The translations under genes and the position numbers were made by a program. DNA of 64,000 bases from Candidatus Kerfeldbacteria bacterium (GTDB lineage Bacteria; Patescibacteriota; Patescibacteriia; UBA9570; XYC2-FULL-38-9), in NCBI GenBank assembly GCA_043813585.1, contig JBDRKW010000020.1, positions 65,185-129,184 of the forward strand, given 5' to 3'. Positions 22,771 to 40,856 of this stretch are shown here, piece by piece. The notes beneath the pieces were generated by a model. That model was not told the DNA's origin. It saw nothing but the letters and a program-made list of their open reading frames with translations, and made no database searches. Numbering within the stretch: position 1 is the first letter of the stretch; each line of letters opens with the position of its first letter.

Positions 22771-22771
22771 C

Positions 22772-23374
22772 ATGAACATACAACAAGCAGTACAACAGAT
22801 AAGAGAAGGTGGTTTTGTTGCGGTAACAGATGATGAGGACCGCGAAAACGAAGCAGACCTAGTGATTGCAGCTCAGCATATTACACCAGAGCTGATGGCT
22901 TTTATGATCCGCAATACCAGCGGGATTATCTGCATCGCCATGGAGGAGGCGCGCCTGAAGGAACTGGAACTGAATCTTTTGCGCGAAACGGACAACACAG
23001 CCCATTTCGGCACGCCGTTTACCATGCCCGTAGACGTAAAGCAGAATACGCGAGGCGGCGTTTCTGCTGAAGAGCGTGTGCAAACCGTGCGGGCATTGAT
23101 CGATCCGGACGCAAAACCGGATGATTTCGGACGGCCGGGGCATGTTTTTCCATTGCGCGTCCATCCGGAAGGCCTTCGCGGCCGTCTTGGCCATACAGAA
23201 GCCTCTATAGATCTCATAAGGCGCGCAAAATGCACGCCAGCGGCGGTTATTGCTGAATTGCTGAATGAAGACGGCTCGCTCATGCGCGGCGCGGATCTGC
23301 GTGATTTTCTCGAAAAAAACAAGATCCCGTTGGTTTCTGTCCGTGAACTCGTAGAAGGCGAAAAACAGACTTGA
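22772..23374 (+). CDS. ribB: 3,4-dihydroxy-2-butanone-4-phosphate synthase (monofunctional RibB)
   Basis: 'VTDDEDRENEADLVIAAQ...FMIRNTSGIICIAM' and 'RPGHVFPLRVHPEGLRGRLGHTEASIDL'. ATG 22772 is preferred over the upstream extension, which overlaps the GT2 gene. Confidence 0.85.
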   Translation: MNIQQAVQQIREGGFVAVTDDEDRENEADLVIAAQHITPELMAFMIRNTSGIICIAMEEARLKELELNLLRETDNTAHFGTPFTMPVDVKQNTRGGVSAEERVQTVRALIDPDAKPDDFGRPGHVFPLRVHPEGLRGRLGHTEASIDLIRRAKCTPAAVIAELLNEDGSLMRGADLRDFLEKNKIPLVSVRELVEGEKQT

Positions 23375-25936: not shown

Positions 25937-26128
25937 ATGAAGGAAGCGCAACAATATCGCTGCCGGGACTGCGACAACATCTCCTGGCAGCCGGAAATAT
26001 GCCACGGCGTCCCAATGGAAGCGCTCTGTTACTGTGGTTCAGGGGAGTTTTTAAGCGACTGCCATGGCGAAGAGGGAAGCGAAGCGGCGCGTGCCGCGGG
26101 ACAATTTGAACCGAAGCAACCGGCATGA
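25937..26128 (+). CDS. small SEC-C motif zinc-binding protein
   Basis: 'CYCGSGEFLSDCHG' matches the SecA C-terminal metal-binding motif CxCGSGxxxxxCHG. An extra CxxC lies at the N-terminus. ATGA-coupled to the next gene. Confidence 0.5.
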   Translation: MKEAQQYRCRDCDNISWQPEICHGVPMEALCYCGSGEFLSDCHGEEGSEAARAAGQFEPKQPA

Positions 26129-28404: not shown

Positions 28405-29472
28405 TTAACGCTTTAAACCCCCGGGAAGTCTTGCGAGTTGCGTTTTAAGGCCGTTTGCGTAATCAGATACAAGTCCCTTCAACGCCGTGATCTCGTTGTA
28501 CTGCGACGGCCGTCCAAAAATCTCCATGAATCCGTGGCCGTTTACTTCTTTCGAGCCGACTGTTCCACGCACATCCATCGGCCCCTCCCAATAATTCACT
28601 TTTGCAAACAGCATCTCCGGGTCTTTGCGGAGCGGCTTCACGGTAATATTAATCTTCTTTGACGGAATTGATATCTTCCACGAGATCGAGTAGGTCGCTT
28701 TTGTTTTCGGGCTTTTCCATTTCTCATCGAGTGCCGTGAAGTGAACATCAGAGGTGTGCGTCTGTGTGCCGTTTGGGTTCATAATGCTTGCCCAGCAATC
28801 ATCACGCTCATCATCACCATAAATGTAGCACAGTATCTCTGTTCCATTATCCAGTTGGAGCGAAAACCAGGTCCATTGCCTTGAGGAGGCAAAATTCAGC
28901 TTTGACCACTGGTGGTCCATCCACGACAATCCGGTTACTTCAAGATCGCGGTCGTTCTGCCGGATGGTTCCTTTTGTATCCAGGTGGGTGAGCGTGTAGT
29001 AGTACGATCCTTTATTGCCAAGGCGCTGGTATCCATCTCCACCAACCATGAGCGGTTTCTTTTTCGATTCCAGCGATAGATTGACCTGTTCGTTCTTCAC
29101 CCGGTAATTGAACAGTGATGTCTCTTCAATGCTGTTGTTGAAGTATCCGTTCATCACGAACGGACTCGCAAAGTTGACGAATAACAGATCCCTGGTAAAC
29201 GAGTCACGAGAAGGAATGACAATATATTCCATAATAGGTGCAAACGAACGTTTTGCTACGTTGAACAGCTGCGAATGCGCGAAATAGAGCGTCTTAAACG
29301 GCATGCGCTTTAGCATAGGTTCTCCAACGTGCCTCGTGTCAACCTTGAATAACGTTGACATATACGCATAGCGGCTGCCGCGCTTATCCCATAAATGCCC
29401 ATTGAAATACCACCATTCAATGATTGCGTCGTCGTGCTTATTTTCGTCGCGCGGGAATAGAACTTTTTTCAT
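28405..29472 (-). CDS. CrtC/AttH-like lipocalin-fold protein (carotenoid 1,2-hydratase family homolog)
   Basis: 'HDDAIIEWWYFNGHL' and 'SWMDHQWS' are the hallmark CrtC/AttH motifs. ATG at 29472 (MKKVLF) preferred over the longer track ORF. Confidence 0.55.
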   Translation of the reverse strand: MKKVLFPRDENKHDDAIIEWWYFNGHLWDKRGSRYAYMSTLFKVDTRHVGEPMLKRMPFKTLYFAHSQLFNVAKRSFAPIMEYIVIPSRDSFTRDLLFVNFASPFVMNGYFNNSIEETSLFNYRVKNEQVNLSLESKKKPLMVGGDGYQRLGNKGSYYYTLTHLDTKGTIRQNDRDLEVTGLSWMDHQWSKLNFASSRQWTWFSLQLDNGTEILCYIYGDDERDDCWASIMNPNGTQTHTSDVHFTALDEKWKSPKTKATYSISWKISIPSKKINITVKPLRKDPEMLFAKVNYWEGPMDVRGTVGSKEVNGHGFMEIFGRPSQYNEITALKGLVSDYANGLKTQLARLPGGLKR

Positions 29473-29531
29473 TTGCTTAGTATAGCAAAATATCTTGATT
29501 TTTTCACGATTGTTTGGCACTATTCGATTCA

Positions 29532-31025
29532 ATGGACAACAACGATCTCACGGAACATATCAAGAATAGTACGTGGTACCGCCAGGCGGTGAGCTCCAAT
29601 CTCTATTACGCATACGCGCCTTTTGACGCATATATCAAGCTCATGGGGCCGATTGCCTGTTTTGCCTATTTTGCGAACAATTTTCATGAAGGATACTTCG
29701 ACATCGACCGGTCATTTGAGATGGCCCGGGCAACACTCAAACAAGTTCGAAAGAATAGGGCGACTATCGATGAGATCCACGCGAAGTGGGAAGCTCTAAG
29801 AAGCGAACACGAGAAAAAAGTCGGACGTGTTAATGAAGGCGTCCTGCAGACATTAGATACGGATGCGTTCATAGAATTCCAGAGAGACTTTTTACAATCC
29901 TGGTGCGCACTTTGGATGATCTCTCTTTATGTAGAACCGTTTGATCCATCAGGTGAAGCATTATTGGAAGAGGAGATACAAAAAGCCGGTGTTCGACTTT
30001 CAAAGAATGAGATCGATACTCTGGTAACTCCGAACCGGCCGTTGTTTCATGCAGTGTTCGAGGCGATGCTAGCCAGCATTGCATTGAACAATTATGAACG
30101 GAAAGATCAGTTACTGAAGATGACTGACGAAGTTTCCTATCGGGATAACAGAATTATTGGATGTGCCGACCTGCAGAAGAAGTATTTCTGGAAAAAGAAT
30201 GACTGGGGGAATGCATGCGCCATGACAGAATATGATTTTTTCATAGAACTTGTTCCGTTGTTTACAAAATCAAAACAGGAACTGGGGGAGCTGATAGAAA
30301 GAGTTGAGACACACTCTAAAGACATTGCGATAAGGAAAAAAGAGATCATCGACAAGCACTCGCTGTCAGAGGAACTGCAAAACATCTTTTACTTGTTTGC
30401 TGAGATGACGCTCTTTCGCGACCAAAGGAAGATCAATATGCAAAAAACCGCAGCTGCGCTTGATGCGATGTTAGAATACATGGCTGACAGAACGGGACTG
30501 GAAAAAGGGCTGCTACGCAATGTTTATGTGACCGAGCTTTCAAGCCTGGACTTTTCCGACGATTATGTGGATCTGTTAAAAGAAAGGGAACAAGGGTCAA
30601 TGCAATATGCTGACAGCGACGGTGGGTATATGAACATCAGCGGAAAACAGGCACAAGATATTCATGATCTTCTTGAGCAAACATATAGGCAGCAGCATGC
30701 AGAGATTGTCGGCACGACAGGTTGCGGCGGGAAAGCTGCAGGAACAGTAAAGGTCATTAACACGCCCGAAGAATTTGGGAAAATGGAACAAGGAGATGTT
30801 TTGGTGGCACCGATGACTCGCCCTGAATACGTTCCGCTCATGAAAAAAGCGGCAGCGATCGTTACTGACGAGGGCGGCATTGCCTGCCATGCGGCAATCG
30901 TCTCGCGTGAGCTGGGCATACCGTGCATTATCGGTTCCCAAATCGCCACAAAGGCACTACATGACGGGGATATTGTGGAGGTTGATGCGGATAGTGGTCA
31001 AGTACGTATGATTGAAGAAAAATAA
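29532..31025 (+). CDS. PEP-utilising-enzyme mobile (phosphohistidine swivel) domain protein with ~390-aa helical N-domain, paralog A
   Basis: C-terminal 'GKAAGTVKVI...GDVLVAPMTRPEYVPLMKKAAAIVTDEGGIACHAAIVSRELGIPCIIG' matches the PEP-utilizers domain with its catalytic His. No PPDK_N ATP-grasp domain. The track ORF begins at TTG 29514. Confidence 0.7.
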   Translation: MDNNDLTEHIKNSTWYRQAVSSNLYYAYAPFDAYIKLMGPIACFAYFANNFHEGYFDIDRSFEMARATLKQVRKNRATIDEIHAKWEALRSEHEKKVGRVNEGVLQTLDTDAFIEFQRDFLQSWCALWMISLYVEPFDPSGEALLEEEIQKAGVRLSKNEIDTLVTPNRPLFHAVFEAMLASIALNNYERKDQLLKMTDEVSYRDNRIIGCADLQKKYFWKKNDWGNACAMTEYDFFIELVPLFTKSKQELGELIERVETHSKDIAIRKKEIIDKHSLSEELQNIFYLFAEMTLFRDQRKINMQKTAAALDAMLEYMADRTGLEKGLLRNVYVTELSSLDFSDDYVDLLKEREQGSMQYADSDGGYMNISGKQAQDIHDLLEQTYRQQHAEIVGTTGCGGKAAGTVKVINTPEEFGKMEQGDVLVAPMTRPEYVPLMKKAAAIVTDEGGIACHAAIVSRELGIPCIIGSQIATKALHDGDIVEVDADSGQVRMIEEK

Positions 31026-32531
31026 ATGACATTCGAACAAGCAAAAAAGAAAGCAGGGGGACATACCTGGTGGAGCGAAGAATGCCCGGGCAAGATGCAG
31101 TATTGCTATTGGATGCATGGCGCGGTGGAGCAGCAGCTCTATTTTACGCCCGGCTTATTGAGCGTCTGTTTTTGCACGGTCCAAAACGGCTATCTTAAAG
31201 AAAAGTCTTCAGAACAGGAAAAACTACAACAGTATTTCTGGTTAAAGGAGCAGTATCAGGACGACCATGGGTACATCGACCAGGAGCACGACCGCTGGAT
31301 GCAGGTTCGCAACGATAAGGTTGCATCGTGTCAGGAGATAGTTTCCCACACAGGCAAGTGGAGCCGTAAACAGCTGTTGGAACAATACAGCCGCTTGCTG
31401 TCGCTCGCAGTCGATTCGGTCAGATGGGGGTTCTGGATCGAGAACGTGGACGTGTATACAAACAATGAACTTCCAAAAAAAATGGCAGAAGTGCTTCCGG
31501 ACATGGACAGCACGGAACGAAGTACTCTGACAGTGACGATGTGCACACCACTGATCGTGAGTTTTATGGAAGAATATCGCATCGACAAGTATCATGTGAT
31601 ACTCAACTACAGAAACGAACTGAATGAACCAACTGAAAGGGCCAAAAAAGCGGTTCAATCCTTCCACATGCAATACCGGTATATTTCCGTCAACTATGGA
31701 GGGTCGCCACCGCTCACAGAAGAAGATATTTGGAGGGAAATTCTTGAGGATGCAGCAACGCATACGGATGAAGAGCTGAAACAGGAGATCGACGATATTG
31801 AAGACAAGATTGATCGTGTCGCAGCCCAGCAATCAGCACTGGAAGAACAGCACCAGTTTCCGATGGATCTGTTGGACGACTTCACCATCATTCGTTCCAT
31901 AGGCGCATGGATGGATGAGCGCAAGGAATCGATGGTGAAGACATCGTTCGCAATCTGGACCATACTTGGAGCAATCGCCGATACAACCGGGATACCAAAA
32001 AGCGAACTGGAGTGGTATACGGTTGAGGAGATAAAAGCGTTGTTGCGTGATGATACGTGCATTCCAGCGGAACAAATACAGGAACGCAACCATAATTCCG
32101 TTATCGCCAGCGAGTTCGACGGCAAAGAGGGGAGCGATATAACGTTCTTTACGGGAAGCGAGGCGGATGAGCTGAGTGCGCTTCTTAACGCGGGCAATAC
32201 AGATGTGTTGGAAGGCATCGTCGCCAGTGCTCCTGATGCGGCCGGCGCAGTCTTTGCCGGCACGGTACAAATCGTAACAGATATCGAAAAAGAGGATTTT
32301 GAAGCGGGAAACATACTAGTGACCTCCATGACACGTCCGGATTTCATGCCGCTTATGAAGAAAGCGGCAGCAATAATCACCAATGAAGGCGGCATGACCT
32401 GCCACGCGGCAATTGTGGCGCGCGAGTTGGGCATTCCCTGCATTATTGGAACCAAATATGCAACAGAAACGCTGAGAAACGGCGATACGGCAGCGATGAA
32501 CATGGAGACTGGGGAGATTACAATCCAATAG
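31026..32531 (+). CDS. PEP-utilising swivel-domain protein, paralog B
   Basis: C-terminal 'GNILVTSMTRPDFMPLMKKAAAIITNEGGMTCHAAIVARELGIPCIIG'. Divergent N-domain. Starts 1 nt after paralog A. Confidence 0.7.
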   Translation: MTFEQAKKKAGGHTWWSEECPGKMQYCYWMHGAVEQQLYFTPGLLSVCFCTVQNGYLKEKSSEQEKLQQYFWLKEQYQDDHGYIDQEHDRWMQVRNDKVASCQEIVSHTGKWSRKQLLEQYSRLLSLAVDSVRWGFWIENVDVYTNNELPKKMAEVLPDMDSTERSTLTVTMCTPLIVSFMEEYRIDKYHVILNYRNELNEPTERAKKAVQSFHMQYRYISVNYGGSPPLTEEDIWREILEDAATHTDEELKQEIDDIEDKIDRVAAQQSALEEQHQFPMDLLDDFTIIRSIGAWMDERKESMVKTSFAIWTILGAIADTTGIPKSELEWYTVEEIKALLRDDTCIPAEQIQERNHNSVIASEFDGKEGSDITFFTGSEADELSALLNAGNTDVLEGIVASAPDAAGAVFAGTVQIVTDIEKEDFEAGNILVTSMTRPDFMPLMKKAAAIITNEGGMTCHAAIVARELGIPCIIGTKYATETLRNGDTAAMNMETGEITIQ

Positions 32532-32532
32532 T

Positions 32533-33978
32533 ATGAATAACGTTATCTCACATGGCCGTGAAAAACTGCGCTGGGGCCCGCTCGACGGAACCTACACGTC
32601 ATTGATCGGCACGGCTGAAGGCGTGGTGATGAAATTGTATGACCACTATCAGTTTGAATGGCCCGCAGGCGTGATGATGGCACGCGGGAACCGGTGGCAA
32701 TGGGTGCAGGACTGGGATCGTCTTATCGAACAAAGCTTCAAGTGTTTTCAAACCCTGATTTTACCCGAAGAAAAGCGCAAAGAGATACGGCAGGCATACG
32801 ATACGCAGGTGAAGCACAATCGGAGTTATGCCGATGCGGTATACAACGGTGAGCTCCCCAAGTTAGATAATGACGCGTTTGTTTCATTCTTCCGGGACTG
32901 GTTTGAGAATTACATTTCATTCTGGGGGCACTCATCACCTTGCGAGCTTTCAACCTGGGGAACAGTGGACCACCTGCAAAAAGAACTTGAACAGCGCAAC
33001 CTCAAGCCGGATGAACTCGCACGGGCATTAGAAACGCTTACCGCGCCAAGCGGATTGTCATTCTTCCAGGAGGCAGAGGCTGATTTATTAAGGACGCTCA
33101 TCAATAAAGAGCCGCTGCAAAGCCACATTGACAGATACTACTGGCTCGGTAACAGTTATGCAGGAGCAAAACGCCGCATGCTAGAAGACATTGAAGAACA
33201 GGCAGCAGAGTTGAGCAGCAAAAAAGACAGCCTGGAAGAGCAATATGCAGTGCTGACGGCATACGCAAAACAGCTGCAACAAAAACGAACAAGGATCCAG
33301 GAAGAGTTTACGCTGCCTGATGAGTTAATGGATAAAAGTCGCGCGCTTGGGATCGCAGTGACATGGCAGGATGAGCGCAAAGGAGAGATGTTCCGGCAGA
33401 TGGACGTGCTCTTTAATTGTGTAGACGAATATGCGCGCAGATTTGGCGCTGAGCGGGACGACATCAACTGGGTTGATGTGCACGAGCTTCTCGAAAATGC
33501 AGAAGACACAAACAAGATTGCAGAACTAGCCGAGGATCGCCGCGGGCATTGCGTGGTCTTCTTTTCCAAGGAGTCACACGAGACAACCGGTGGAATAAAA
33601 GCGGAAGAGTACCTTAATGAATATTGGGAAGACGAACCCGTGAATGACGAACTGAAAGGAACGGTTGCGAGTTTCGGTGATGGCGAAAGGACGGTAACCG
33701 GACAAGTCACCATAATTCATTCGGCGTTTGAAGACAAGGATTTCAAAGAGGGAAGCATACTGGCGTCAGCCATGACCACGCCGGAATTCATGCCGCTGAT
33801 CAAAAAAGCAAAAGCAATTATCACTGATGAAGGCGGCCTGACTGCGCATGCGGCAGTGGTTTCCCGTGAAATGGGCATACCGTGCATTGTTGGGACGAAA
33901 TTCGCAACAAAACTGCTAAAAGACGGCGATAGTGTTACAATGAATCTTCAGACGGGGGAAATTATCAAAAACAATTAA
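32533..33978 (+). CDS. PEP-utilising swivel-domain protein, paralog C
   Basis: C-terminal 'GSILASAMTTPEFMPLIKKAKAIITDEGGLTAHAAVVSREMGIPCIVG'. Divergent N-domain. Starts 2 nt after paralog B. Confidence 0.7.
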   Translation: MNNVISHGREKLRWGPLDGTYTSLIGTAEGVVMKLYDHYQFEWPAGVMMARGNRWQWVQDWDRLIEQSFKCFQTLILPEEKRKEIRQAYDTQVKHNRSYADAVYNGELPKLDNDAFVSFFRDWFENYISFWGHSSPCELSTWGTVDHLQKELEQRNLKPDELARALETLTAPSGLSFFQEAEADLLRTLINKEPLQSHIDRYYWLGNSYAGAKRRMLEDIEEQAAELSSKKDSLEEQYAVLTAYAKQLQQKRTRIQEEFTLPDELMDKSRALGIAVTWQDERKGEMFRQMDVLFNCVDEYARRFGAERDDINWVDVHELLENAEDTNKIAELAEDRRGHCVVFFSKESHETTGGIKAEEYLNEYWEDEPVNDELKGTVASFGDGERTVTGQVTIIHSAFEDKDFKEGSILASAMTTPEFMPLIKKAKAIITDEGGLTAHAAVVSREMGIPCIVGTKFATKLLKDGDSVTMNLQTGEIIKNN

Positions 33979-33988
33979 TCGTACGCAT

Positions 33989-34933
33989 ATGGCAAAACGG
34001 GATTTTGTCCACACAACAGACTTCAGCAAGGAGGATTATGATGAAATATTCCGCCGCGCGAAGATATTTGAAGAGGGCATAAAAGCAGGCAAAGATTTTA
34101 CGCACCTGATGCCAGGTAAGGTGCTGGCAAGCATGTTCCTGAAAGAAAGCACCCGCACAATGACCAGCGCGCAGTCAGCGATTATCCGGCTGGGCGGCGC
34201 GTGGACAGGACTGACCGGGACTGCCGGAACCTACCTGGCGACCGGCGAAGAAGACGTCTATGACATCTGCGAATCCATCGCAGAAGTTGCTGATCTCATG
34301 TACCTCCGCTACAACGACGTGGACCCGAAAGAGCTTGCGAAGAAGATCAACATCCCGCTGATCAACGGCATGTGCGGCGGGGACGAACATGCCACCGGCG
34401 CCATGGCACTTGCGTATCCGTGGTCAAAGCGCATAGACCTGACCGGAAAAACTATCGGCATGTATGGCATGGTCAGTTCCAGCCGGCCGATGAAAGCGAT
34501 AGCTAGCATGCTTGCTCCGTACGGCGTTAAATTTGTAATTGACCCCGTGGTCGACGTATTTAAATTCCCGGAGCACATTACCAAACTCGCAACCGAGCGC
34601 GGTGCGACAATCGAATACAAGCCGTGGGAAGAGTGGATCGGTGATGCAGATGCGTTTATTTGGGTGGAGGGCCTGCCGCAGGCCGGCGAGCCGGAAGAGA
34701 ACGTGAAAAAGTTCAACGAGAAATTCCATCAGTTCACGGCAGCTGACATCAAGCGCGCCAAAGATGATGCGCTGTTCTTGGCCTGCATGCCGCGTATGAC
34801 AACAGACGGTCGTCTGACAATGGCCAAGGACTGCGACGACCACCCGAATAACTCATCGTTTGAGGCGCTGAATTTGTTCGTCTATGTCACAATGGCGCTC
34901 TATACCTATCTACTCGACGTTAAGGTTGATTAA
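33989..34933 (+). CDS. aspartate/ornithine carbamoyltransferase-fold protein with degenerate catalytic motifs
   Basis: 'FLKESTRTMTSAQSAIIRLGG' resembles the STRTR carbamoyl-phosphate loop with R replaced by M. 'DEHATG' sits where HPxQ is expected, and 'ACMPR' where HCLP/HPLP is expected. Confidence 0.5.
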   Translation: MAKRDFVHTTDFSKEDYDEIFRRAKIFEEGIKAGKDFTHLMPGKVLASMFLKESTRTMTSAQSAIIRLGGAWTGLTGTAGTYLATGEEDVYDICESIAEVADLMYLRYNDVDPKELAKKINIPLINGMCGGDEHATGAMALAYPWSKRIDLTGKTIGMYGMVSSSRPMKAIASMLAPYGVKFVIDPVVDVFKFPEHITKLATERGATIEYKPWEEWIGDADAFIWVEGLPQAGEPEENVKKFNEKFHQFTAADIKRAKDDALFLACMPRMTTDGRLTMAKDCDDHPNNSSFEALNLFVYVTMALYTYLLDVKVD

Positions 34934-34939
34934 ACGTAT

Positions 34940-36691
34940 ATGACCTCGAAAGAGTTTAGGCATTTCAAACCGGAAAAAGTCCTCATCCCGGAAACAGAAA
35001 AAGGCGGCCTGCCGTCCGAGGGTACCCAGATTATTCATGACCAGGACGGCCGGATCGCGTTTTGCGGCTCCCCGCACGATGTTGCGCAGTGGGTGAACGC
35101 CCGGCGCGACGAGGGTGCCACATTTCGAACAGAAGAAGGGGGAGTGCTGCTTCCCGGGCTGGCAGACACGCATTACCACCCTGCAATTTACGGCACGCTC
35201 GAGCTCCTAAGGCCGGCAGACGCGTCCGCAGTAAAATCGGCCGGACAGCTGCGCAACCTCGCGCAGGAGGCGCTGCGCGAACGCAAAGGCGAAACACACT
35301 CGGACGAGCCGCTGGTGATATTGAATTACGATTCTTCACAGGTTGGAAGCTTCAGCGAGCTGAACATGGACGAGGTGGAGGCGACACAGCCGATATTCGT
35401 GCTGGACCGGTCGTTCCACAGCGGCGCGGGCAATTCTGCAGCAATGCGGGTGCTTGACCGGTATTTGGAAAAAAATTACAGCCAGCGCAAACAGAAGTCA
35501 GGCGCGTACGATTTCCCTGGCTATATGAAAAAGCAGGAAATTGCGGAAGCGTTTGTATTCCTGGCAATGGAGTTAGCCGAATCATACCAATCCGTGGAAA
35601 AGGTTGAAGGCGCGATTGAGACGAGCGTGGAAAATTACCTCGCGAAAGGCGTGACGTCGATCCACGAGATGGCGGTCATGTCCTGGCAACAGCTTATGGC
35701 GTACCTGTTGCTTCACAAGGAATGGAAAGGGAAGCACCCGAAGATGGAGTTCCCGGTGAGGCAGATCTACCTAACCGACGCCGTAGTCGAGCGGTTCGTG
35801 CGCGAAGAGGATGCGCTGGTGAAATCCGGTTTGCTGACCGACGATATCAAGGGAATATTAGGAGTGAAACTGCTGGCTGACGGATCAATCGGCAGCAGGA
35901 CCGCGCTTATGGATGAACCCTATTTGTCCGCTGACCAAAAGAAACAGCACGGCATCATCTACAACCGCATGCGCGAGGCGGAAAAAGCGCTCAAACTGGC
36001 AGCACGGTCCGGTTTGGATAAAGTTGCGGTGCATGCGATCGGCGATAAAGGCATTGTGCGCGCCATCGAATTCGGCCGCAAATGGATGGAGATCGCGGAA
36101 AAAGGGAAGATTGACCCGAAATTCCGCATGGAGCATTTTGAACTTCCGCAGCCCGAATCTATTCGCGAGGCAGGGGAGATGGGCGCATGGGTGTCCATGC
36201 AGCCGAATTTTGGACTGGAAGACATTGTGTACCATGACCGCATCGGCAACCGCACGCGGCTGCTCTGTCCGCACGCTGACCTGACGAACGAAGGCGTGCC
36301 GATGATGTTCGGGAGCGACGGCATGCCGGACAGCATGTTGTACGTCATCTGGTCAGCCATGCACCACCACGACCCGAAACACCGGCTGGACGCCATATCA
36401 GCCGTGACAGCCGCATCTGCGGCTGCAGGCGCGTATGAGGGTTCGCTGCGCGGGACGCTGCAGCCCGGGTCGCAGACCGATATTGTGGTGGCGTCGCCGG
36501 AGCTGCTGCAGGTGCTGGCAGACGGACGGCTTGCACAGGACTATTTTGAACAGGCCGACCTGCCGCCTGACCAGCGGACGATCCCGATCCGCGACCAGGT
36601 TGGCGAGCTGGAACGCCGGATTTTGCGGGTATTCAGGAACGGGCAGCTTGTCCATGCAGCAGATTCGGAGAAGGACGGGAAAAGCAGTTGA
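34940..36691 (+). CDS. amidohydrolase family protein (Amidohydro_3-like metal-dependent hydrolase)
   Basis: 'LLPGLADTHYHPA' (HxH metal site), 'VLDRSFHSGAGNS', 'VAVHAIGDKGIVRAIEFG', 'GSDGMPDS'. GC-rich (~58-60%). Confidence 0.7.
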   Translation: MTSKEFRHFKPEKVLIPETEKGGLPSEGTQIIHDQDGRIAFCGSPHDVAQWVNARRDEGATFRTEEGGVLLPGLADTHYHPAIYGTLELLRPADASAVKSAGQLRNLAQEALRERKGETHSDEPLVILNYDSSQVGSFSELNMDEVEATQPIFVLDRSFHSGAGNSAAMRVLDRYLEKNYSQRKQKSGAYDFPGYMKKQEIAEAFVFLAMELAESYQSVEKVEGAIETSVENYLAKGVTSIHEMAVMSWQQLMAYLLLHKEWKGKHPKMEFPVRQIYLTDAVVERFVREEDALVKSGLLTDDIKGILGVKLLADGSIGSRTALMDEPYLSADQKKQHGIIYNRMREAEKALKLAARSGLDKVAVHAIGDKGIVRAIEFGRKWMEIAEKGKIDPKFRMEHFELPQPESIREAGEMGAWVSMQPNFGLEDIVYHDRIGNRTRLLCPHADLTNEGVPMMFGSDGMPDSMLYVIWSAMHHHDPKHRLDAISAVTAASAAAGAYEGSLRGTLQPGSQTDIVVASPELLQVLADGRLAQDYFEQADLPPDQRTIPIRDQVGELERRILRVFRNGQLVHAADSEKDGKSS

Positions 36692-36716
36692 CATTTTTCA
36701 TTCAGTGACGTACGGT

Positions 36717-36741
36717 AAGCCGTTCCTAGAACGGCTTTTTA
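36717..36741 (+). terminator. rho-independent terminator (AAGCCGTTC-cta-GAACGGCTT-TTTT)
   Basis: Perfect 9-bp stem plus T-run, 25 nt after the stop at 36691. Confidence 0.65.
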
Positions 36742-36917
36742 AGCCTTTTTGGGTGATCTTTATACATTTCTGCGAAACGGCAAGCAGCAGGTTTTTAGGT
36801 TGAATTTCGGGCGTTTTGAGTCCAATTAAACCTAGAACACCTTCTGCTTGTTGACGATTAGCGTTGACTGCAGAGAAGGAAACACGATACCAAAACGGGT
36901 ACTGGGAGGTACAAACC

Positions 36918-38411
36918 ATGGGAATGCTGTTTACCGGAAGGTTTCTGACGTTGCTTGATGAGACGGTCGACAAGGTTCTGGTCGACGACGACGGACTGAT
37001 CGTCGCGACCGGCGACTTGGCCGGCTTGCTGGTCAAGAACGCCGAGATCGAGACCGTCGAGCTCCCGGGCTACACCATGCCCGGATTCCGGTCCGAGCAC
37101 GATCACATGCTGTTCACGCTCGTGGCCGGCTCGCTGTCGCTGCGCGGCGTGGACAACGAGGGCGAGGCCGCGACCCTGATCCGGACAGCACTCGGCCGGC
37201 GGCCCGAGGGGTGGGTGGTGATCACCGACTGGAACGACTCGGTACTCAACACCGCCCAGATGTCCGATCTCGTCAATATCCTGGCTGCCGACCGCATGCT
37301 CCTCGTGCTCAACACGAGCTGGCACAGTGCCTTCGGGTCCAGGAACCTGATCAAGCACGTGAGCCCGACGCTCCGCGCCATGAACCTGGCCACCGGCTCG
37401 TGCATCGGCCAGTTACTGACGGAGGACCACGTGCTGCAGACGGTCAGCCTGATGCAGACCAACGCAGATGCGCTGGTCAGCTCGGTGATGGACCGTCAGC
37501 AGTTCCTGTTCAGCAAGGGTGTCACCAGCATGTTCGACAAGCTGGTGCACGGCGAGGCGATTCACGATGCCATGGAGCGCGCCTCTCGCGCCGGATGGCT
37601 GAAGTACCACATCTTCGCGGCCGTGCAGCCGTGGATGATGCGCAACGGTCTCATGCCCGGTCCGCGCGGACGGAGCTTCGAGGTGAAATGGATGAAGTAC
37701 CTGGCCGACGGGTCCTTCGGCTCCCGCACCGCCTTCATGGCCCGCGATTACGGCATGATGTACTCCGACGGCACCGAAGGCGTCTTCCAGCTGCCGCCGC
37801 CCAGCGAGATTTACGACGACCTGACCGAGTGGCTGGACAAGGGCGGCGAGGGCCTCTGCGTCCACGCCATCGGCCCTGGTGCGGTGCACAACGTCATCGG
37901 CCTGTTCGAATGGCTATACAAGCGCATCGGCGATAAGTCGGTGATGATGTCGCTCGAGCACGGTACCACCTGGGTGCCGGGCCTGGTCGAGCGCTTCGCC
38001 AAGTTGCAGCACGCGGGATACAACATCCGGCTCTGCAGCCAGATGTCGTTCACCGAGGACGCCAGCCAGTACGCGGACAGGCTGCCGCAGATCGTTTGCG
38101 ATGCCATCAACCCGTATGCTGACTTCGAACGCTGCGGGGTACTCTACAGTGGCGGGACCGACGGCCCGATCTGCAACGACGACCACCTCGGTGGGACGTC
38201 GCAGGCGGTGAACCGGCCAGGTTCCCAGGCGATCGACGCCCAGACCGCGCTTCGCCGGGTCACGGAGGGTCCGATGGAGGCCGGAATGCCGTTCAACATG
38301 GTGTGCCTCAATCGCGACATCATCGAGAAGCCCATGGAAATGGCGCTGGCACAACCGCTGCAGACCTGGATCAACGGCAAGAAGGTCTGGGAGAAGAGCG
38401 ATAACGAGTAG
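36918..38411 (+). CDS. amidohydrolase family protein (Amidohydro_3-like), compositionally foreign (~64-66% GC)
   Basis: Same architecture as the upstream paralog ('ELPGYTMPGFRSEHDHM', 'VLNTSWHSAFGS', 'LCVHAIGPGAVHNVIGLFEW', 'YSGGTDGP'), about 25-30% identical. SD GGGAGGT lies 7 nt before ATG 36918. The track start is TTG 36864. Confidence 0.7.
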   Translation: MGMLFTGRFLTLLDETVDKVLVDDDGLIVATGDLAGLLVKNAEIETVELPGYTMPGFRSEHDHMLFTLVAGSLSLRGVDNEGEAATLIRTALGRRPEGWVVITDWNDSVLNTAQMSDLVNILAADRMLLVLNTSWHSAFGSRNLIKHVSPTLRAMNLATGSCIGQLLTEDHVLQTVSLMQTNADALVSSVMDRQQFLFSKGVTSMFDKLVHGEAIHDAMERASRAGWLKYHIFAAVQPWMMRNGLMPGPRGRSFEVKWMKYLADGSFGSRTAFMARDYGMMYSDGTEGVFQLPPPSEIYDDLTEWLDKGGEGLCVHAIGPGAVHNVIGLFEWLYKRIGDKSVMMSLEHGTTWVPGLVERFAKLQHAGYNIRLCSQMSFTEDASQYADRLPQIVCDAINPYADFERCGVLYSGGTDGPICNDDHLGGTSQAVNRPGSQAIDAQTALRRVTEGPMEAGMPFNMVCLNRDIIEKPMEMALAQPLQTWINGKKVWEKSDNE

Positions 38412-38440
38412 CGTACCGCGCCAAGCGGCGGCTGCCTCCG

Positions 38441-38491
38441 GCGTGCTTTGCATGAGGTCAATCCCTCTGCAGAGCACGCTGTCTTTTTTTT
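38441..38491 (+). terminator. possible terminator (GCGTGCT ... AGCACGC + T8) after the GC-rich gene
   Basis: 7-bp stem with a long 25-nt loop, followed by TTTTTTTT. Confidence 0.35.
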
Positions 38492-38520
38492 GGGTGAAAA
38501 ATATGCGATAATACTCTCCT

Positions 38521-38880
38521 ATGGACACCAAGATCTGGGGCAAGGTACAACAAGGGAACGCACGCGGCAGCAAACTGGGCTATAACACCGCAAATATCGC
38601 CATTCACCGCGCTGTTGAAGACGGTGTGCATATTTCTCGTACCAAGGTTGACAACGTGTGGCATCCGTCAGTAACCTTCATCGGAGCCGCTATTACCTAT
38701 GGAGATACGAAGCGCCATGCGGAAACGCATATTCTCAACTTCAATAGGAATATTATTGGAAAGCGCATCACCATCAATCTTCTAAGGCGCATCCGCGGCA
38801 ACAGGAAATTCAGCAGCGAACAAGATCTCGTCGCCGCAATAAAGGCAGATATCTCAATCGCTCAAACCTATTTCAAATAA
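38521..38880 (+). CDS. ribK: riboflavin kinase (monofunctional, RibF C-terminal-domain type)
   Basis: 'GKVQQGNARGSKLGYNTANI' (GxxxGRxLGFPTAN motif) and 'ETHILNFNRNIIGKRITINLLRRIRGNRKFSSEQDLVAAIKADI'. Confidence 0.8.
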   Translation: MDTKIWGKVQQGNARGSKLGYNTANIAIHRAVEDGVHISRTKVDNVWHPSVTFIGAAITYGDTKRHAETHILNFNRNIIGKRITINLLRRIRGNRKFSSEQDLVAAIKADISIAQTYFK

Positions 38881-39467
38881 TGTTCACAGGAATCATCACA
38901 GCGTACGAAACAGTCTCTAACATTGTTGAAAAAAATGGCAACAAAATCTTTACGATACTCAAACCGGAACAATGGAAACTCGCAATAGGGGACAGCGTGA
39001 GCGTAAACGGCGTGTGTTCGACTATAATCGCGAGCAACGATGCGACATTTCAAGTAGAGTATATGCCGGAGACCCTTCGCCTCACAACGCTTAATATAAT
39101 CAGCGTGGATGACAAGATAAACCTTGAGCTAAGCGCTAGAATCGGCGACCCTCTTTCCGGCCATTTTGTGTATGGCCATATCGATGGTACAGGCACAATC
39201 GAGCAAATAGAAAAAGACGGTGATTCGCATATTCTGACGATCAGTTTTAATCCTCAATTCAAAAAATATCTCATACAGAAAGGATCCGTAGCGCTCAATG
39301 GAATAAGTTTGACCGTGATCAATCCATCGGGGGATGCATTCCAGGTTGCAATCATCCCGCACACATGGGAAAATACAAACCTTAAAGCGTTAAACGATGG
39401 CGACAGCGTGAACCTGGAATTTGATGCGATCGCAAAATATATTGAACAAATGACAACCGCAAAATGA
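38880..39467 (+). CDS. ribE: riboflavin synthase alpha subunit
   Basis: 'MFTGIITAYETV...AIGDSVSVNGVCST' lumazine-binding repeat, duplicated ('GSVALNGISLTV'). Confidence 0.85.
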   Translation: MFTGIITAYETVSNIVEKNGNKIFTILKPEQWKLAIGDSVSVNGVCSTIIASNDATFQVEYMPETLRLTTLNIISVDDKINLELSARIGDPLSGHFVYGHIDGTGTIEQIEKDGDSHILTISFNPQFKKYLIQKGSVALNGISLTVINPSGDAFQVAIIPHTWENTNLKALNDGDSVNLEFDAIAKYIEQMTTAK

Positions 39468-39913
39468 GCGACCGATTAAAAAAAGAAAAAATAGACATAG
39501 TGAATCCGAAAGCATTAAGGATAGGCATTGTTCGGTCGCTGTATAACCAGGATATCACCGACCAACAGCTGGCACGAGCAACAGAATGCCTTGAAGAGCA
39601 CGGCGTTGCATACGATGTGATCGATGTTACTGGCACCTTTGAAATAGCTTACATGCTCCAGCGGATGGCAGAATCAAAAAAATACAACGGACTTGTTGCG
39701 CTCGGGTGCCTTATTAAGGGTGAAACGTCGCATTACGACATTATCGCAAACGCTATCGGTGAAGCGGTCATGAACCTGATTCGCGAATACAAACTGCCGA
39801 TCGGTTTTGGCATTATTACCGCGTTTGAAAAGGACCAGGCTATTGCGCGCGACTGGCTCGGGCATGACGCAGCCTATGCCGTTCTGCACTCCCTAAATCA
39901 ACTCCAAAAGTAA
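39464..39913 (+). CDS. ribH: 6,7-dimethyl-8-ribityllumazine synthase
   Basis: 'RIGIVRSLYNQDIT...YDVIDVTGTFEIAYMLQRMAESKKYNGLVALGCLIKGETSHYDIIAN'. Confidence 0.85.
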   Translation: MSDRLKKEKIDIVNPKALRIGIVRSLYNQDITDQQLARATECLEEHGVAYDVIDVTGTFEIAYMLQRMAESKKYNGLVALGCLIKGETSHYDIIANAIGEAVMNLIREYKLPIGFGIITAFEKDQAIARDWLGHDAAYAVLHSLNQLQK

Positions 39914-39914
39914 T

Positions 39915-40856
39915 ATGTCATACACGAAACAGCTGGAAGAAATCACTAAGGAGAGTGTTTCGGAAGCAGGAGGTAAGGGGGCGAGCCTGGGCGAAATGAT
40001 GCAGGCCGGTTTTCCGGTGCCGCCGGGATTTGTCATAACCTCATCAACCTACGATGAATTCCTGGATAGGCTGAATGTGAAGGAGGACATCAACGCGCAG
40101 TTGAAGACAGTCGATCTCAATGACATGAACTCTGTTGAAAAAGCAACAGCAGTTATCCACGATATTATCCATGATGTACAGATCCCCGATGATATGCAGA
40201 AAGAGTTCCTTGCAGAGTTCGACAAGCTGGATGCTACCTTTGTTGCAGTGCGCAGCTCTGCAACCGCAGAGGATTCGGCAGTTGCGTCATGGGCTGGCGA
40301 GTTGGAAACATACCTCAACACAACCAAGATAACTTATATCAACAATATTAAGAAGTGCTGGGCGTCGCTATTCTCTCCGCGAGCCATATTCTATAGGATG
40401 GAGAATAAATTAGAGGACGCAAAAGTATCGGTTGCGGTTGTTGTGCAGAAAATGGTCAATAGCGACGTGGCTGGTGTTATTTTCACTGTGCACCCAGTTA
40501 CGAAGAATGATAACCAAATGATTATTGAGGCCGGCTTTGGTTTGGGAGAGATGTTGGTTTCAGGGCAGATCACGCCTGACAGTTATATTGTTGCTAAGGA
40601 TTCACTTACATTGATAGACAGCAATATCTCGACGCAAACATCGAAGATGGTCCGTAATGAATCAGGCATCAACGAAATCGTAAAGTTCTCAGAAGAAGAG
40701 GGTAGTAAGCAGAAGCTGACAACAGATCAAATACAGCAACTCGCTGAGACAGCAAAAAAAATTGAAGCCCATTACGGCTTCCCTTCGGATATTGAGTGGG
40801 CGATAGAGGGGAGTGATATCTTTATCACTCAATCGCGTCCAATCACAACGTTGTAG
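39915..40856 (+). CDS. stand-alone PEP/pyruvate-binding ATP-grasp domain protein (PPDK_N, N-terminal half of PEP synthase / rifampin-phosphotransferase-like enzymes)
   Basis: 'SEAGGKGASLGEMMQAGFPVPPGFVI', 'VAVRSSATAEDSAVASWAGE', 'DIEWAIEGSDIFITQSRPITTL'. The protein ends exactly where the swivel domain would begin. Starts 2 nt after ribH. Confidence 0.8.
   Translation: MSYTKQLEEITKESVSEAGGKGASLGEMMQAGFPVPPGFVITSSTYDEFLDRLNVKEDINAQLKTVDLNDMNSVEKATAVIHDIIHDVQIPDDMQKEFLAEFDKLDATFVAVRSSATAEDSAVASWAGELETYLNTTKITYINNIKKCWASLFSPRAIFYRMENKLEDAKVSVAVVVQKMVNSDVAGVIFTVHPVTKNDNQMIIEAGFGLGEMLVSGQITPDSYIVAKDSLTLIDSNISTQTSKMVRNESGINEIVKFSEEEGSKQKLTTDQIQQLAETAKKIEAHYGFPSDIEWAIEGSDIFITQSRPITTL

What the first reader, a model, noticed from the sequence alone, without database searches (positions are those of the whole stretch)
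29532..40856. Split PEP-utilising phosphotransfer family: three tandem swivel-domain paralogs plus a remote stand-alone ATP-grasp (PPDK_N) subunit
Each of the three back-to-back genes (29532-31025, 31026-32531, 32533-33978; gaps of 0-1 nt) ends in a canonical PEP-utilizers phosphohistidine swivel domain (GG-x-[TA]-[CA]-HAA-[IV]-V-[SA]-RE-[LM]-GIPCI-[IV]-G). Their ~380-aa N-terminal regions are mutually divergent, helical, Trp-rich and lack any ATP-binding domain. The only PPDK_N (ATP-grasp, PEP/pyruvate-binding) domain in the window is a separate 313-aa protein at 39915-40856. It stops exactly at the point where a swivel domain would normally follow, and it is translationally coupled to ribK-ribE-ribH. 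In PEP synthase, pyruvate phosphate dikinase and rifampin phosphotransferase these modules are fused in one chain. Here the architecture looks like one shared ATP-dependent 'E1-like' subunit serving three substrate-specific His-phosphocarrier/substrate-binding subunits. That would make it a small, diversified phosphotransfer or xenobiotic/metabolite-phosphorylating system, and I do not recognise the N-domains as any described family. The paralog expansion suggests selection for distinct substrates.
Basis: partly seen in the sequence, partly recalled or inferred. Interest (0 to 1): 0.72.

Follow-up and report, generated by a model that had tools for sequence, protein, structure and literature searches.

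The report
Split rifampin-phosphotransferase-like dikinase, three substrate modules
A candidate-phyla-radiation bacterium encodes a kinase of the rifampin-phosphotransferase type in separate pieces: one ATP-binding subunit and three very different substrate-binding/phosphohistidine subunits. The split design is already known, but its expansion into large gene arrays across ultra-small bacteria and archaea appears undescribed, and the substrates are unknown.

Summary
Three abutting genes each end in a PEP-utilizers swivel domain with an intact phosphohistidine motif. The only PPDK_N ATP-grasp gene in the window is a 313-aa stand-alone protein 5.9 kb downstream, abutting ribH.

- The N-domains are distant homologues of the rifampin-binding domain of rifampin phosphotransferase (RPH). 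They keep the acid/Lys motif that RPH needs for the second phosphotransfer.
- Split enzymes of this type are already characterised: PpsAB, CreHI and HpeHI.

What looks new is the scale. The window comes from a Candidatus Kerfeldbacteria MAG. Across CPR bacteria and DPANN archaea, relatives form arrays of up to nine anciently diverged modules. Where a stand-alone PPDK_N lies nearby there is exactly one, usually abutting a module. Natural fusions join an orthologous PPDK_N to between one and eight modules in a single chain.

The most likely mechanism has one shared ATP-grasp subunit pyrophosphorylating the swivel His of each module. Each module then phosphorylates its own substrate (X + ATP + H2O → X-P + AMP + Pi). 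Substrates are unknown. I found no paper describing these arrays.

The parts
29514..31025 (+). Module A: RPH-type substrate-binding N-domain plus a C-terminal phosphohistidine swivel domain. The start is TTG 29514 (NCBI annotation) or ATG 29532. In ATG numbering, the RDQRK motif is at residues 296-300 (nt 30417-30431) and the catalytic His453 codon is at 30888-30890.
   Evidence: - Pfam finds PF00391 only.
- AF2 model: pLDDT 95.5, pTM 0.90.
- The orthologue in L085 has 51% N-domain identity; the archaeal L001 copy has 41%.
31026..32531 (+). Module B: same architecture as A. MDERK motif at residues 296-300 (nt 31911-31925). His460 codon at 32403-32405.
   Evidence: - Pfam.
- N-domain HMM 245 bits and swivel HMM 134 bits.
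- Orthologues in L085 (68%) and L086 (47%).
- Coordinates.
32533..33978 (+). Module C: same architecture as A. QDERK motif at residues 279-283 (nt 33367-33381). His439 codon at 33847-33849.
   Evidence: - Pfam.
- N-domain HMM 217 bits and swivel HMM 140 bits.
- NCBIfam aligns residues 306-477 with RPH 696-858.
- Orthologue in L085 at 56%.
- Coordinates.
39915..40856 (+). Stand-alone ATP-grasp (PPDK_N) subunit of 313 aa. Lys21, Arg113 and Thr132 correspond to RPH Lys22, Arg117 and Thr136.
   Evidence: - Pfam PF01326, E 6e-97.
- PDB alignments.
- 50-66% identity to PPDK_N genes that abut modules and to PPDK_N domains fused to modules.
33989..38411 (+). Context genes between the modules and the ATP-grasp gene. 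Their membership in the system is uncertain.
- Carbamoyltransferase-like gene, 33989-34933
- Amidohydro_3 gene, 34940-36691
- Amidohydro_3 gene, 36864-38411
   Evidence: - Pfam and NCBIfam hits are all below the family cut-offs for ATCase/OTCase.
- The same order is kept in relative L086, which has one amidohydrolase.
- GC3 is 65-87%, against about 50-57% for the modules, rib genes and PPDK_N.
38439..38491 (+). Intrinsic-terminator-like hairpin (38439-38481) followed by a U8 run (38484-38491), upstream of ribK. It probably separates the module operon(s) from the ribK-ribE-ribH-PPDK_N operon.
   Evidence: RNA fold of 38412-38495: ΔG -40.3 kcal/mol, z = -4.15 against shuffles.
38521..39913 (+). 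ribK (38521-38880), ribE (38880-39467) and ribH (39464-39913). They overlap or abut one another and the PPDK_N gene.
   Evidence: - Pfam: Flavokinase, Lum_binding, DMRL_synthase.
- The same block precedes PPDK_N in L086 and L087.

Best explanation
The four genes encode a split, hub-and-spoke 'water dikinase' of the rifampin-phosphotransferase (RPH) type.

**Proposed mechanism**
1. The 313-aa ATP-grasp protein binds MgATP.
2. The C-terminal swivel domain of module A, B or C docks on it. Its conserved His (A His453, B His460, C His439) attacks the β-phosphate, releasing AMP.
3. The γ-phosphate is hydrolysed to Pi, leaving phospho-His.
4. The swivel domain then swings back onto its own helical N-domain. 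There an acid/Arg-Lys motif ([R/M/Q]-D-x-R-K, equivalent to RPH Arg666-Glu667...Lys670) positions the phosphoryl group for transfer to a bound acceptor.

The net reaction is X-OH + ATP + H2O → X-O-P + AMP + Pi, with a different X for each module.

**What is shown:** domain composition, fold, retention of catalytic residues, conserved linkage, and natural fusions.

**What is inferred:** the chemistry, the sharing of one ATP-grasp subunit by all three modules, and the nature of X. My best guess, held weakly, is small metabolites that are phosphorylated for salvage or activation. The hint is that phosphohydrolase, cytidylyltransferase and phosphotransacetylase genes recur next to such arrays.
For: **Domains**
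- Swivel-only and PPDK_N-only Pfam architectures.

**Fold of module A** (AF2 pLDDT 95.5)
- RPH is the only PDB entry that matches beyond the swivel domain.
- The top six Foldseek hits are all RPH-Lm, with query TM 0.39-0.52 (five of six at 0.42 or above). Every other hit is at 0.20 or below.

**Catalytic residues**
- The family profile aligns R296-D297-x-R299-K300 with RPH R666-E667-Y-P-K670.
- R666A and E667A abolish the second phosphotransfer in RPH (PMC4844700).
- D, R299 and K300 are present in all three window modules, and R299/K300 are invariant in 80 homologues.
- The ATP-grasp protein keeps the equivalents of RPH Lys22, Arg117 and Thr136.

**Partner assignment**
- Of the 83 loci surveyed (82 relatives plus the window), 23 carry exactly one stand-alone PPDK_N and none carries two. 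The median distance to the nearest module is about 11 bp.
- Examples are L001, L004, L005 and L086.
- Natural fusions carry a PPDK_N domain 51-54% identical to the window's. They run from PPDK_N-Ndom-swivel (853 aa) up to PPDK_N plus eight modules (3761 aa).
- The AF2 model of the 853-aa fusion matches full-length RPH best (E 2e-37) and then HpeI.

**Specialisation of the modules**
- A, B and C each have their own orthologue in L085 in the same order (51%, 68% and 56% N-domain identity). They are only about 20% identical to one another.
- 229 of 234 modules have their best N-domain hit in another locus.

**Precedent**
- HpeHI, PpsAB and CreHI work in exactly this way (PMC12167813).
Against: - In this window the ATP-grasp gene is 5.9 kb from the modules, the largest distance in my survey. 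It probably sits in a different operon, behind a strong terminator and coupled to riboflavin genes.
- No interaction or activity was tested, and no multimer prediction was possible.
- Arg296, the RPH Arg666 equivalent, is Met in B and Gln in C. The invariant Arg299 would have to substitute for it.
- Known two-component dikinases are 1:1 pairs. One-to-many use is inferred only from gene counts and fusions.
- The whole genome could not be inspected for further PPDK_N copies.
- The substrates are unknown. Neighbour enrichment for phosphohydrolases is modest: at 1e-5, HAD 6, HD 6 and His_Phos_1 3 of 150 adjacent ORFs, with none of the three among the families matched by two of 150 distal ORFs.
Confidence: 0.7

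Rival explanations
1. The architecture is as proposed, but the role is detoxification. Each module inactivates a different antibiotic or xenobiotic made by hosts or neighbours, as RPH does with rifamycins.
For: - RPH is the only solved structure that matches the substrate-binding domain.
- The arrays are highly diversified.
- They sit near variable-region genes such as ParE, PIN and nucleotidyltransferase/TA-like genes.
- CPR and DPANN organisms live attached to other microbes (general knowledge).
Against: - Subfamilies are ancient and orthologous across CPR and DPANN, not rapidly turning over.
- Identity to RPH is only 15-17%, and NCBIfam RPH models score 57-65 bits against a cut-off of 999.
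- The recurrent neighbours are phosphatases, cytidylyltransferases and PTA, which suggests phospho-metabolite handling rather than resistance.
- There are no PADLOC hits.
Confidence: 0.15
2. The three swivel proteins do not use the remote PPDK_N protein. They act alone as phosphoryl-exchange enzymes (X-P + Y → X + Y-P) or take phosphate from another donor. The PPDK_N protein would then serve something linked to the riboflavin operon.
For: - HpeH alone catalyses phosphotransfer between phenolic substrates (PMC12167813).
- In the window, PPDK_N is separated from the modules by a strong terminator and is translationally coupled to ribK-ribE-ribH. This coupling is kept in L086 and L087.
- Phosphatase genes recur next to the arrays.
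Against: - The orthologous PPDK_N abuts module genes in 16 of the 22 other loci that carry a stand-alone copy (within 100 bp), and it is covalently fused to modules in many CPR/DPANN proteins.
- A PPDK_N domain has no known function without a swivel His acceptor, and the window holds no other swivel domain.
Confidence: 0.1
3. The genes are a fragmented PEP synthase or pyruvate phosphate dikinase for central carbon metabolism, either functional in pieces or pseudogenised.
For: - The best sequence matches of both the ATP-grasp and the swivel parts are to PEP synthases (8a8e: 2e-68 and 1e-46).
- Public annotations call relatives 'pyruvate, water dikinase'.
Against: - There is no PEP/pyruvate-binding TIM-barrel domain (PF02896) anywhere in these genes.
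- The domain order is substrate-domain then swivel, as in RPH, not ATP-grasp/swivel/TIM barrel.
- Scores are far below the PEPS cut-offs (117 and 331 bits against 740).
- Lengths, motifs and orthologues are conserved across hundreds of genomes, which excludes decay.
Confidence: 0.03

Closest known systems
Two-component small-molecule dikinases: HpeHI (Rhodococcus), PpsAB phenylphosphate synthase (Thauera) and CreHI (Corynebacterium)
   Same: - The split is the same: a stand-alone ATP-grasp protein (HpeI/PpsB) plus a protein with an RPH-like substrate-binding domain and a C-terminal swivel His (HpeH/PpsA).
- The T-x-x-G-G-x-x-x-H motif is the same.
- The HpeI crystal structure 9goj matches the window PPDK_N at E 4e-53 and the natural fusion model at E 3e-24.
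   Different: - The known systems are 1:1 pairs of adjacent genes in aromatic-catabolism clusters, and their substrate subunits are described as ~70-71 kDa (PMC12167813).
- Here there are three modules of about 480-500 aa, and up to nine in relatives, per ATP-grasp gene.
- The NCBIfam PRK08296 models (unnamed ~600-aa proteins ending in a swivel domain; I take them to be PpsA-like from memory) match only the swivel part (97 bits against a cut-off of 578).
- The residue two before the His is mostly Thr, as in PEP synthase, not Met.
- The hosts are CPR/DPANN organisms, and there is no aromatic-catabolism context.
Rifampin phosphotransferase (RPH; PDB 5FBS/5FBT/5FBU, 5HV1)
   Same: - The three-domain logic and the domain order of the substrate part are the same.
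- It is the only PDB fold match to the N-domain.
- The catalytic Arg/acid/Lys motif and the ATP-grasp Lys/Arg/Thr are conserved.
- Single-chain CPR relatives (for example the 853-aa P0377) have the RPH architecture.
   Different: - RPH is a single chain. The window's enzyme is split.
- Identity in the substrate domain is 15-17%.
- NCBIfam RPH models score far below their cut-off.
- The N-domain is about 50-60 residues shorter.
- The substrate is almost certainly not rifampin.
PEP synthase (PpsA) and pyruvate phosphate dikinase
   Same: - The ATP-grasp and swivel domains are most similar in sequence to those of archaeal and bacterial PEP synthases.
- The presumed His-pyrophosphoryl chemistry is the same.
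   Different: - There is no PEP/pyruvate TIM-barrel domain.
- The domain order is different.
- The genes are split.
PigC/RedH prodigiosin ligases and Campylobacter Cj1418 L-glutamine kinase (the latter from memory)
   Same: They belong to the same superfamily of ATP-grasp + acceptor domain + swivel His enzymes acting on small molecules. NCBIfam PigC/RedH models hit both window parts.
   Different: They are single-chain enzymes of about 770-880 aa with other acceptor chemistries. Scores are far below the cut-offs. Cj1418 was not tested here.
PTS Enzyme I / HPr / EII relay
   Same: There is a conceptual parallel only: one general energy-coupling component feeds many substrate-specific components. 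The swivel domain is homologous to the EI N-terminal His domain.
   Different: The donor is ATP rather than PEP. There are no HPr, EII or membrane components, and no transport function is shown.

Membership tests
Two-component small-molecule dikinases (PpsAB/CreHI/HpeHI type) | ATP-grasp (PPDK_N) domain on its own polypeptide | tested here: met
   The 313-aa protein carries PF01326 only and ends at the position aligned with RPH residue 316, the end of the ATP-grasp alignment.
Two-component small-molecule dikinases (PpsAB/CreHI/HpeHI type) | A second polypeptide made of an RPH-like substrate-binding domain followed by a C-terminal swivel domain with T/S-x-x-G-G-x-x-x-H | tested here: met
   Fold matches to RPH. 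The motifs TDEGGIACH, TNEGGMTCH and TDEGGLTAH are present.
Two-component small-molecule dikinases (PpsAB/CreHI/HpeHI type) | The two component genes are adjacent or co-transcribed | tested here: not met
   In the window they are 5,937 bp apart with a strong terminator between them. The feature is met in most relatives.
Two-component small-molecule dikinases (PpsAB/CreHI/HpeHI type) | Sequence membership in the clade I equate with PpsA/CreH/HpeH (the unnamed NCBIfam PRK08296 models) | tested here: not met
   The PRK08296 models match only the swivel part, with 43-97 bits against cut-offs of 578-730.
Two-component small-molecule dikinases (PpsAB/CreHI/HpeHI type) | ATP-dependent His phosphorylation that requires both components, with AMP + Pi as products | not testable with these tools
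   Biochemistry is needed.
Rifampin phosphotransferase (RPH) | A single chain of ATP-grasp, RIF-binding domain and swivel domain, scoring above the NCBIfam NF041857 cut-off | tested here: not met
   The genes are split. Scores are 57-65 bits (modules) and 283 bits (PPDK_N) against a cut-off of 999.
Rifampin phosphotransferase (RPH) | Catalytic Arg666-Glu667...Lys670 in the acceptor domain | tested here: inconclusive
   The acid and Lys are conserved in A, B and C. The Arg666 equivalent is kept only in A (Met in B, Gln in C). A family-invariant Arg sits one residue before the Lys.
PEP synthase / PPDK | A C-terminal PEP/pyruvate-binding TIM-barrel domain (PF02896), scoring above the TIGR01418 cut-off | tested here: not met
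   No PF02896 hit. Scores are 106-117 and 331 bits against a cut-off of 739.75.
PEP synthase / PPDK | Phospho-His swivel domain and ATP-grasp domain | tested here: met
   PF00391 and PF01326 are present. The best PDB sequence hits are PEP synthases.

The most novel reading that the evidence does not exclude
CPR bacteria and DPANN archaea share a hub-and-spoke phosphorylation system. A single ATP-grasp 'charging' subunit loads the phosphohistidine arms of many anciently diverged substrate modules, up to nine per locus and sometimes fused into polyproteins of 2,000-3,800 aa. Each module phosphorylates a different scavenged metabolite. The system would be an ATP-driven, PTS-like trapping or activation toolkit that helps these biosynthetically poor symbionts live off their hosts.
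Probability: 0.25. Interest if true: 0.8.

Novelty: new variant of a known kind. Interest (0 to 1): 0.6.

Why it matters
- **Scale in tiny genomes.** CPR and DPANN genomes are very small, yet they devote up to nine-plus genes per locus to this family. An N-domain profile finds about 1,700 clusters at 50% identity. The family is therefore likely to matter to how these organisms live, and nothing is known about its substrates.
- **Annotation.** Public annotations call these proteins 'PEP-utilizing enzyme', 'PEP/pyruvate-binding domain-containing protein' or 'pyruvate, water dikinase'. That could lead metabolic reconstructions to infer PEP synthase and gluconeogenesis wrongly. This is my inference; I did not check any specific reconstruction.
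- **Mechanism.** A one-to-many ATP-grasp/swivel system and its polyprotein forms would extend the recently defined two-component dikinase subfamily.
- **Tractability.** The soluble proteins give a workable entry point for substrate discovery in uncultivated lineages.

Tried and rejected
- **Pseudogene or PEPS fragments:** rejected because of conserved orthologues, intact motifs and a confident fold.
- **Anti-phage defence family:** none of the seven cluster proteins hits PADLOC.
- **Virus-borne copies:** the IMG/VR scan gave only swivel-domain matches and no N-domain.
- **UDP-GlcNAc 2-epimerase (PF02350) link:** the precomputed Pfam lists suggested this. The hits lie inside or overlap the swivel domain and are below the cut-off, so they are spurious.
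- **One dominant conserved partner gene next to arrays:** none was found. There was only modest enrichment of HAD, HD and His_Phos_1 phosphohydrolases, PTA and small cytidylyltransferases over a distal-ORF control.
- **Promoter and terminator consensus scan:** the counts were at chance level. Only direct folding revealed the terminator before ribK.
- **FMN riboswitch upstream of ribK:** none at the Rfam gathering threshold.
- **AFDB fold search:** the library was unavailable.
- **AlphaFold-multimer of PPDK_N with each module:** not available. A natural single-chain fusion was modelled instead, and its inter-domain confidence was only moderate (pTM 0.68).
- **Literature:** searches for CPR/DPANN together with PEP-utilizing or swivel terms found no description of these arrays.

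Full report
**1. What is in the sequence**

The region holds a co-directional run of genes on the + strand. In order they are:
- three abutting genes of 497/503, 501 and 481 aa (29514 or 29532-31025, 31026-32531, 32533-33978)
- a carbamoyltransferase-like gene
- two Amidohydro_3 genes
- ribK, ribE and ribH
- a 313-aa gene (39915-40856)

A histidine-kinase gene follows on the opposite strand.

Pfam finds only the PEP-utilizers swivel domain (PF00391, E about 1e-25) at the C-terminus of each of the three genes, and nothing in their first ~380-400 residues. It finds only PPDK_N (PF01326, E 6e-97) in the 313-aa protein.

HMMs that I built for the three domain types find no other copies among window ORFs of at least 80 aa. 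The one qualification is that 'Trp-rich' holds clearly for B and C (3.1-3.3% against 1.07% background) and only marginally for A.

**2. Source and spread**

Gene A is 100% identical to a protein annotated 'PEP-utilizing enzyme' from a Candidatus Kerfeldbacteria MAG, on a 351-kb contig.

Homologues of about 450-520 aa with the same swivel-only Pfam architecture are numerous, and the named ones are labelled CPR bacteria or DPANN archaea. Of the 79 distinct loci kept, 52 are explicitly labelled CPR or DPANN, and most of the rest carry generic or doubtful bin labels.

The stand-alone PPDK_N protein has many ~315-aa homologues at 54-68% identity in Patescibacteria. It is thus far better conserved than the modules, which are about 30% identical across genomes.

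A profile of the three window N-domains finds 1,693 proteins at E ≤ 1e-3 and 737 at E ≤ 1e-10 among 1.84 billion 50%-identity representatives. These include multi-module proteins of up to 2,309 aa.

**3. What the N-domains are**

An AlphaFold2 model of module A, built with 80 homologues, is very confident (pLDDT 95.5, pTM 0.90). Three comparisons point to rifampin phosphotransferase (RPH):
- **Foldseek.** The top six hits are all RPH-Lm entries aligned over the whole query, with query TM 0.39-0.52. Every other hit has TM 0.20 or below.
- **Sequence profile.** The family profile aligns positions 234-482 with RPH 614-866 (E 2e-26).

In that profile alignment the family motif R296-D297-x-R299-K300 lines up with RPH Arg666-Glu667-Tyr-Pro-Lys670. 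Stogios et al. showed that R666A and E667A abolish the second phosphotransfer while leaving the ATP-side partial reaction. They place Lys670 in the same hydrogen-bond network (PMC4844700).

The three window modules read RDQRK, MDERK and QDERK. The acid, Arg299 and Lys300 are kept in all three. Arg299 and Lys300 are invariant in 80 homologues.

The N-domains are therefore distant homologues of the RPH rifampin-binding domain, not an unrelated new fold. B and C match my N-domain HMM at 245 and 217 bits.

**4. The ATP-grasp protein**

It aligns end to end with the RPH ATP-grasp domain (residues 4-316, E 5e-60), with PEP synthases (2e-68) and with the 387-aa chain 9goj (4e-53). Foldseek later identified 9goj as the HpeI crystal structure.

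Lys21, Arg113 and Thr132 correspond to RPH Lys22, Arg117 and Thr136, which RPH needs for the first phosphotransfer.

**5. Is the remote PPDK_N gene the partner?**

Comparative evidence says yes. I surveyed 83 loci (the window plus relatives) with my HMMs. They contain 286 swivel modules.

- **Copy number.** 23 loci carry a stand-alone PPDK_N gene, always exactly one.
- **Distance.** The distance to the nearest module gene has a median of about 11 bp. The window's 5,937 bp is the maximum.

Examples:

| Locus | Arrangement |
|---|---|
| L001 (archaeal) | PPDK_N, 2 modules, 2 HAD genes, 3 modules, HAD gene |
| L004 | module, PPDK_N, module, then a third module 1.7 kb downstream |
| L005 | module, PPDK_N |
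| L071 | PPDK_N plus nine modules |

The window's PPDK_N is 50-66% identical to these module-adjacent copies. It is 51-54% identical to the PPDK_N domains of natural fusions, against 38-44% to bona fide PEPS-like PPDK_N-swivel proteins. The fusions include:
- PPDK_N-Ndom-swivel (L036, 853 aa)
- PPDK_N plus two modules (L050, 1,311 aa)
- 1,994-aa proteins (L053, L061)
- a 3,761-aa ORF with PPDK_N plus eight modules (L032)

A database search seeded with the 853-aa fusion returned more than 100 proteins carrying both PF01326 and PF00391, of 676-1,488 aa.

An AlphaFold2 model of that fusion has pLDDT 92 and pTM 0.68, so the domain packing is only moderately confident. Its best match is full-length RPH-Lm over its whole length (E 2e-37), followed by HpeI and the isolated RPH ATP-grasp domain.

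**6. The local arrangement**

A related Patescibacteria contig (L086, PPDK_N 66% identical) keeps the same order: β-CASP nuclease, three modules, OTC-like gene, Amidohydro_3, ribK, ribE, ribH, PPDK_N, with a histidine kinase on the opposite strand. L085 keeps modules A, B and C in the same order plus a fourth module. So the bracketing of this block by the two dikinase components is conserved in this lineage.

It is unlikely to be one transcript. A hairpin of about 18 bp followed by U8 lies just upstream of ribK (38439-38491; ΔG -40 kcal/mol, z -4.2). A weaker terminator-like hairpin follows the first amidohydrolase.

The rib linkage is lineage-specific, because other CPR/DPANN loci lack it.

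**7. Age and specialisation of the paralogues**

- The N-domains of A, B and C are 20-21% identical to one another.
- Each has its own orthologue in L085 (51%, 68% and 56% identity). A's N-domain is 41% identical to an archaeal copy in L001.
- Across 234 single-module proteins, 229 have their best N-domain BLAST hit in another locus.
- Of 471 within-locus pairs, only 163 are detectably similar (median 24% identity, maximum 34%).

The arrays are therefore sets of old, distinct subfamilies shared between CPR and DPANN, not recent tandem duplicates. This fits distinct substrate specificities.

**8. Mechanism**

By homology with RPH (PMC4844700) and with the characterised two-component dikinases HpeHI, PpsAB and CreHI (PMC12167813), I infer the following:
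1. The ATP-grasp subunit presents MgATP.
2. The swivel His of a module attacks the β-phosphate, releasing AMP.
3. The γ-phosphate is hydrolysed to Pi.
4. The phospho-His domain returns to its own N-domain and phosphorylates the bound acceptor.

HpeH and HpeI form only a transient complex. That makes it plausible for one ATP-grasp protein to be shared by several modules. The sharing is inferred here from gene counts and fusions and has not been shown directly.

**9. Clues to substrates**

These clues are weak.

I took 150 same-strand ORFs lying within 600 bp of array genes. Their Pfam hits at 1e-5, and additional members found by clustering, were as follows:

| Family | Hits at 1e-5 | With clustering |
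|---|---|---|
| HAD | 6 | - |
| HD | 6 | about 8 |
| His_Phos_1-like | 3 | 5 |
| PTA_PTB | 4 | - |
| small cytidylyltransferase-like | 3 | - |

Most neighbours had no Pfam hit. In 150 control ORFs at least 3 kb away, none of these families was among those matched by two members.

Phospho-metabolite handling is therefore a recurrent theme, but no pathway can be assigned. In the window itself the neighbours are a divergent carbamoyltransferase-like protein, amidohydrolases and riboflavin genes.

**10. Comparison with what is known, and novelty**

The split itself is not new. [quoted passage not shown]

The CPR/DPANN proteins differ from that clade in several ways:
- The NCBIfam PRK08296 models, which I take to be PpsA-like, match only the swivel region.
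- The modules are shorter.
- The ATP-grasp and swivel parts are closer to PEP synthase than to RPH or HpeI.
- The residue two before the His is mostly Thr, as in PEP synthase.

The apparently undescribed features are the one-to-many organisation, the arrays of up to nine modules, the multi-module polyproteins, and the near-restriction to CPR and DPANN. Five full-text literature searches and one targeted read of a DPANN protein-family paper found no description of them. This is absence of evidence in a partial library, not proof.

I classify the finding as a new variant of a known kind.

**11. Verdict**

- It is wrong that the N-domain is unrecognisable.
- It overstates the novelty of the split.
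- The substrates and the biological role remain open.
- Interest is moderate to high (0.6), because the family is large, conserved and uncharacterised in lineages with minimal genomes.

Noticed in passing
window 36864-38411 (also 33989-36691): The second Amidohydro_3 gene is a strong compositional outlier (GC 63%, GC3 87%). The dikinase modules, rib genes and PPDK_N have GC3 of about 48-57%. The OTC-like gene and the first amidohydrolase are intermediate (GC3 65-69%). Relative L086 has an orthologue of the second amidohydrolase (39% identity) but lacks the first. This suggests a foreign or recently remodelled insert between the dikinase components.
   Followed up: partly
window 38439-38491 (+) and 36717-36750 (+): A textbook intrinsic terminator (hairpin of about 18 bp plus U8; ΔG -40 kcal/mol, z -4.2) lies just upstream of ribK. 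A weaker hairpin with a U-tract follows the first amidohydrolase. The consensus scan did not report the strong one.
   Followed up: yes
window 22619-23374, 38521-39913: A partial riboflavin gene set is present: DHBP synthase (ribB), flavokinase, riboflavin synthase and lumazine synthase. There is no FMN riboswitch at the Rfam gathering threshold. I did not look for ribA or ribD. A divergent carbamoyltransferase-like gene (33989-34933, 72% identical in L086) and amidohydrolases sit beside these genes.
   Followed up: partly
window 26125-27477 (+): A β-CASP metallo-β-lactamase nuclease matches the NCBIfam type VII CRISPR Cas14 model (E 1e-122, 410 bits, below the cut-off of 800) and archaeal aCPSF1 (E 6e-100). 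It is a conserved upstream neighbour of the module array in L085 and L086.
   Followed up: no
L032:803-12088 (+); also L061:7952-13936, L053:247-6230, L050:384-4319: Giant uninterrupted ORFs fuse one PPDK_N domain to several modules. The largest, in a Woesearchaeota MAG, is 3,761 aa with eight swivel modules. Proteins of 1,836-2,309 aa with three or four N-domain matches also appear in the representative library (P0242, P0249, P0312).
   Followed up: partly
L013:11497-12468, L015:1917-2888, L006:8978-9979, L014:1426-2430: Phosphate acetyltransferase (PTA_PTB, E down to 7e-95) genes lie beside module genes in DPANN loci. In L013 and L015 they sit directly between a module and the PPDK_N gene, with overlapping or abutting ends.
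   Followed up: no
window 28405-29532 (-) against 29514-31025 (+): A CrtC/AttH-like lipocalin gene on the opposite strand sits between the β-CASP gene and module A. Its longest ORF overlaps the annotated TTG start of module A by 19 nt. It is present in L085 but absent in L086.
   Followed up: no
L020, L041, L052, L055, L067 (several genes each): A shorter class of swivel proteins (about 330-375 aa) is interleaved in the arrays. Their N-parts mostly fail to match the N-domain HMM, or match only the region around the D-x-R-K motif. They may be a truncated or divergent module type.
   Followed up: no
L088-L112 (IMG/VR): Viral contigs hold only swivel-domain-level relatives (query residues from 339 onward). 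None has the RPH-like N-domain.
   Followed up: yes
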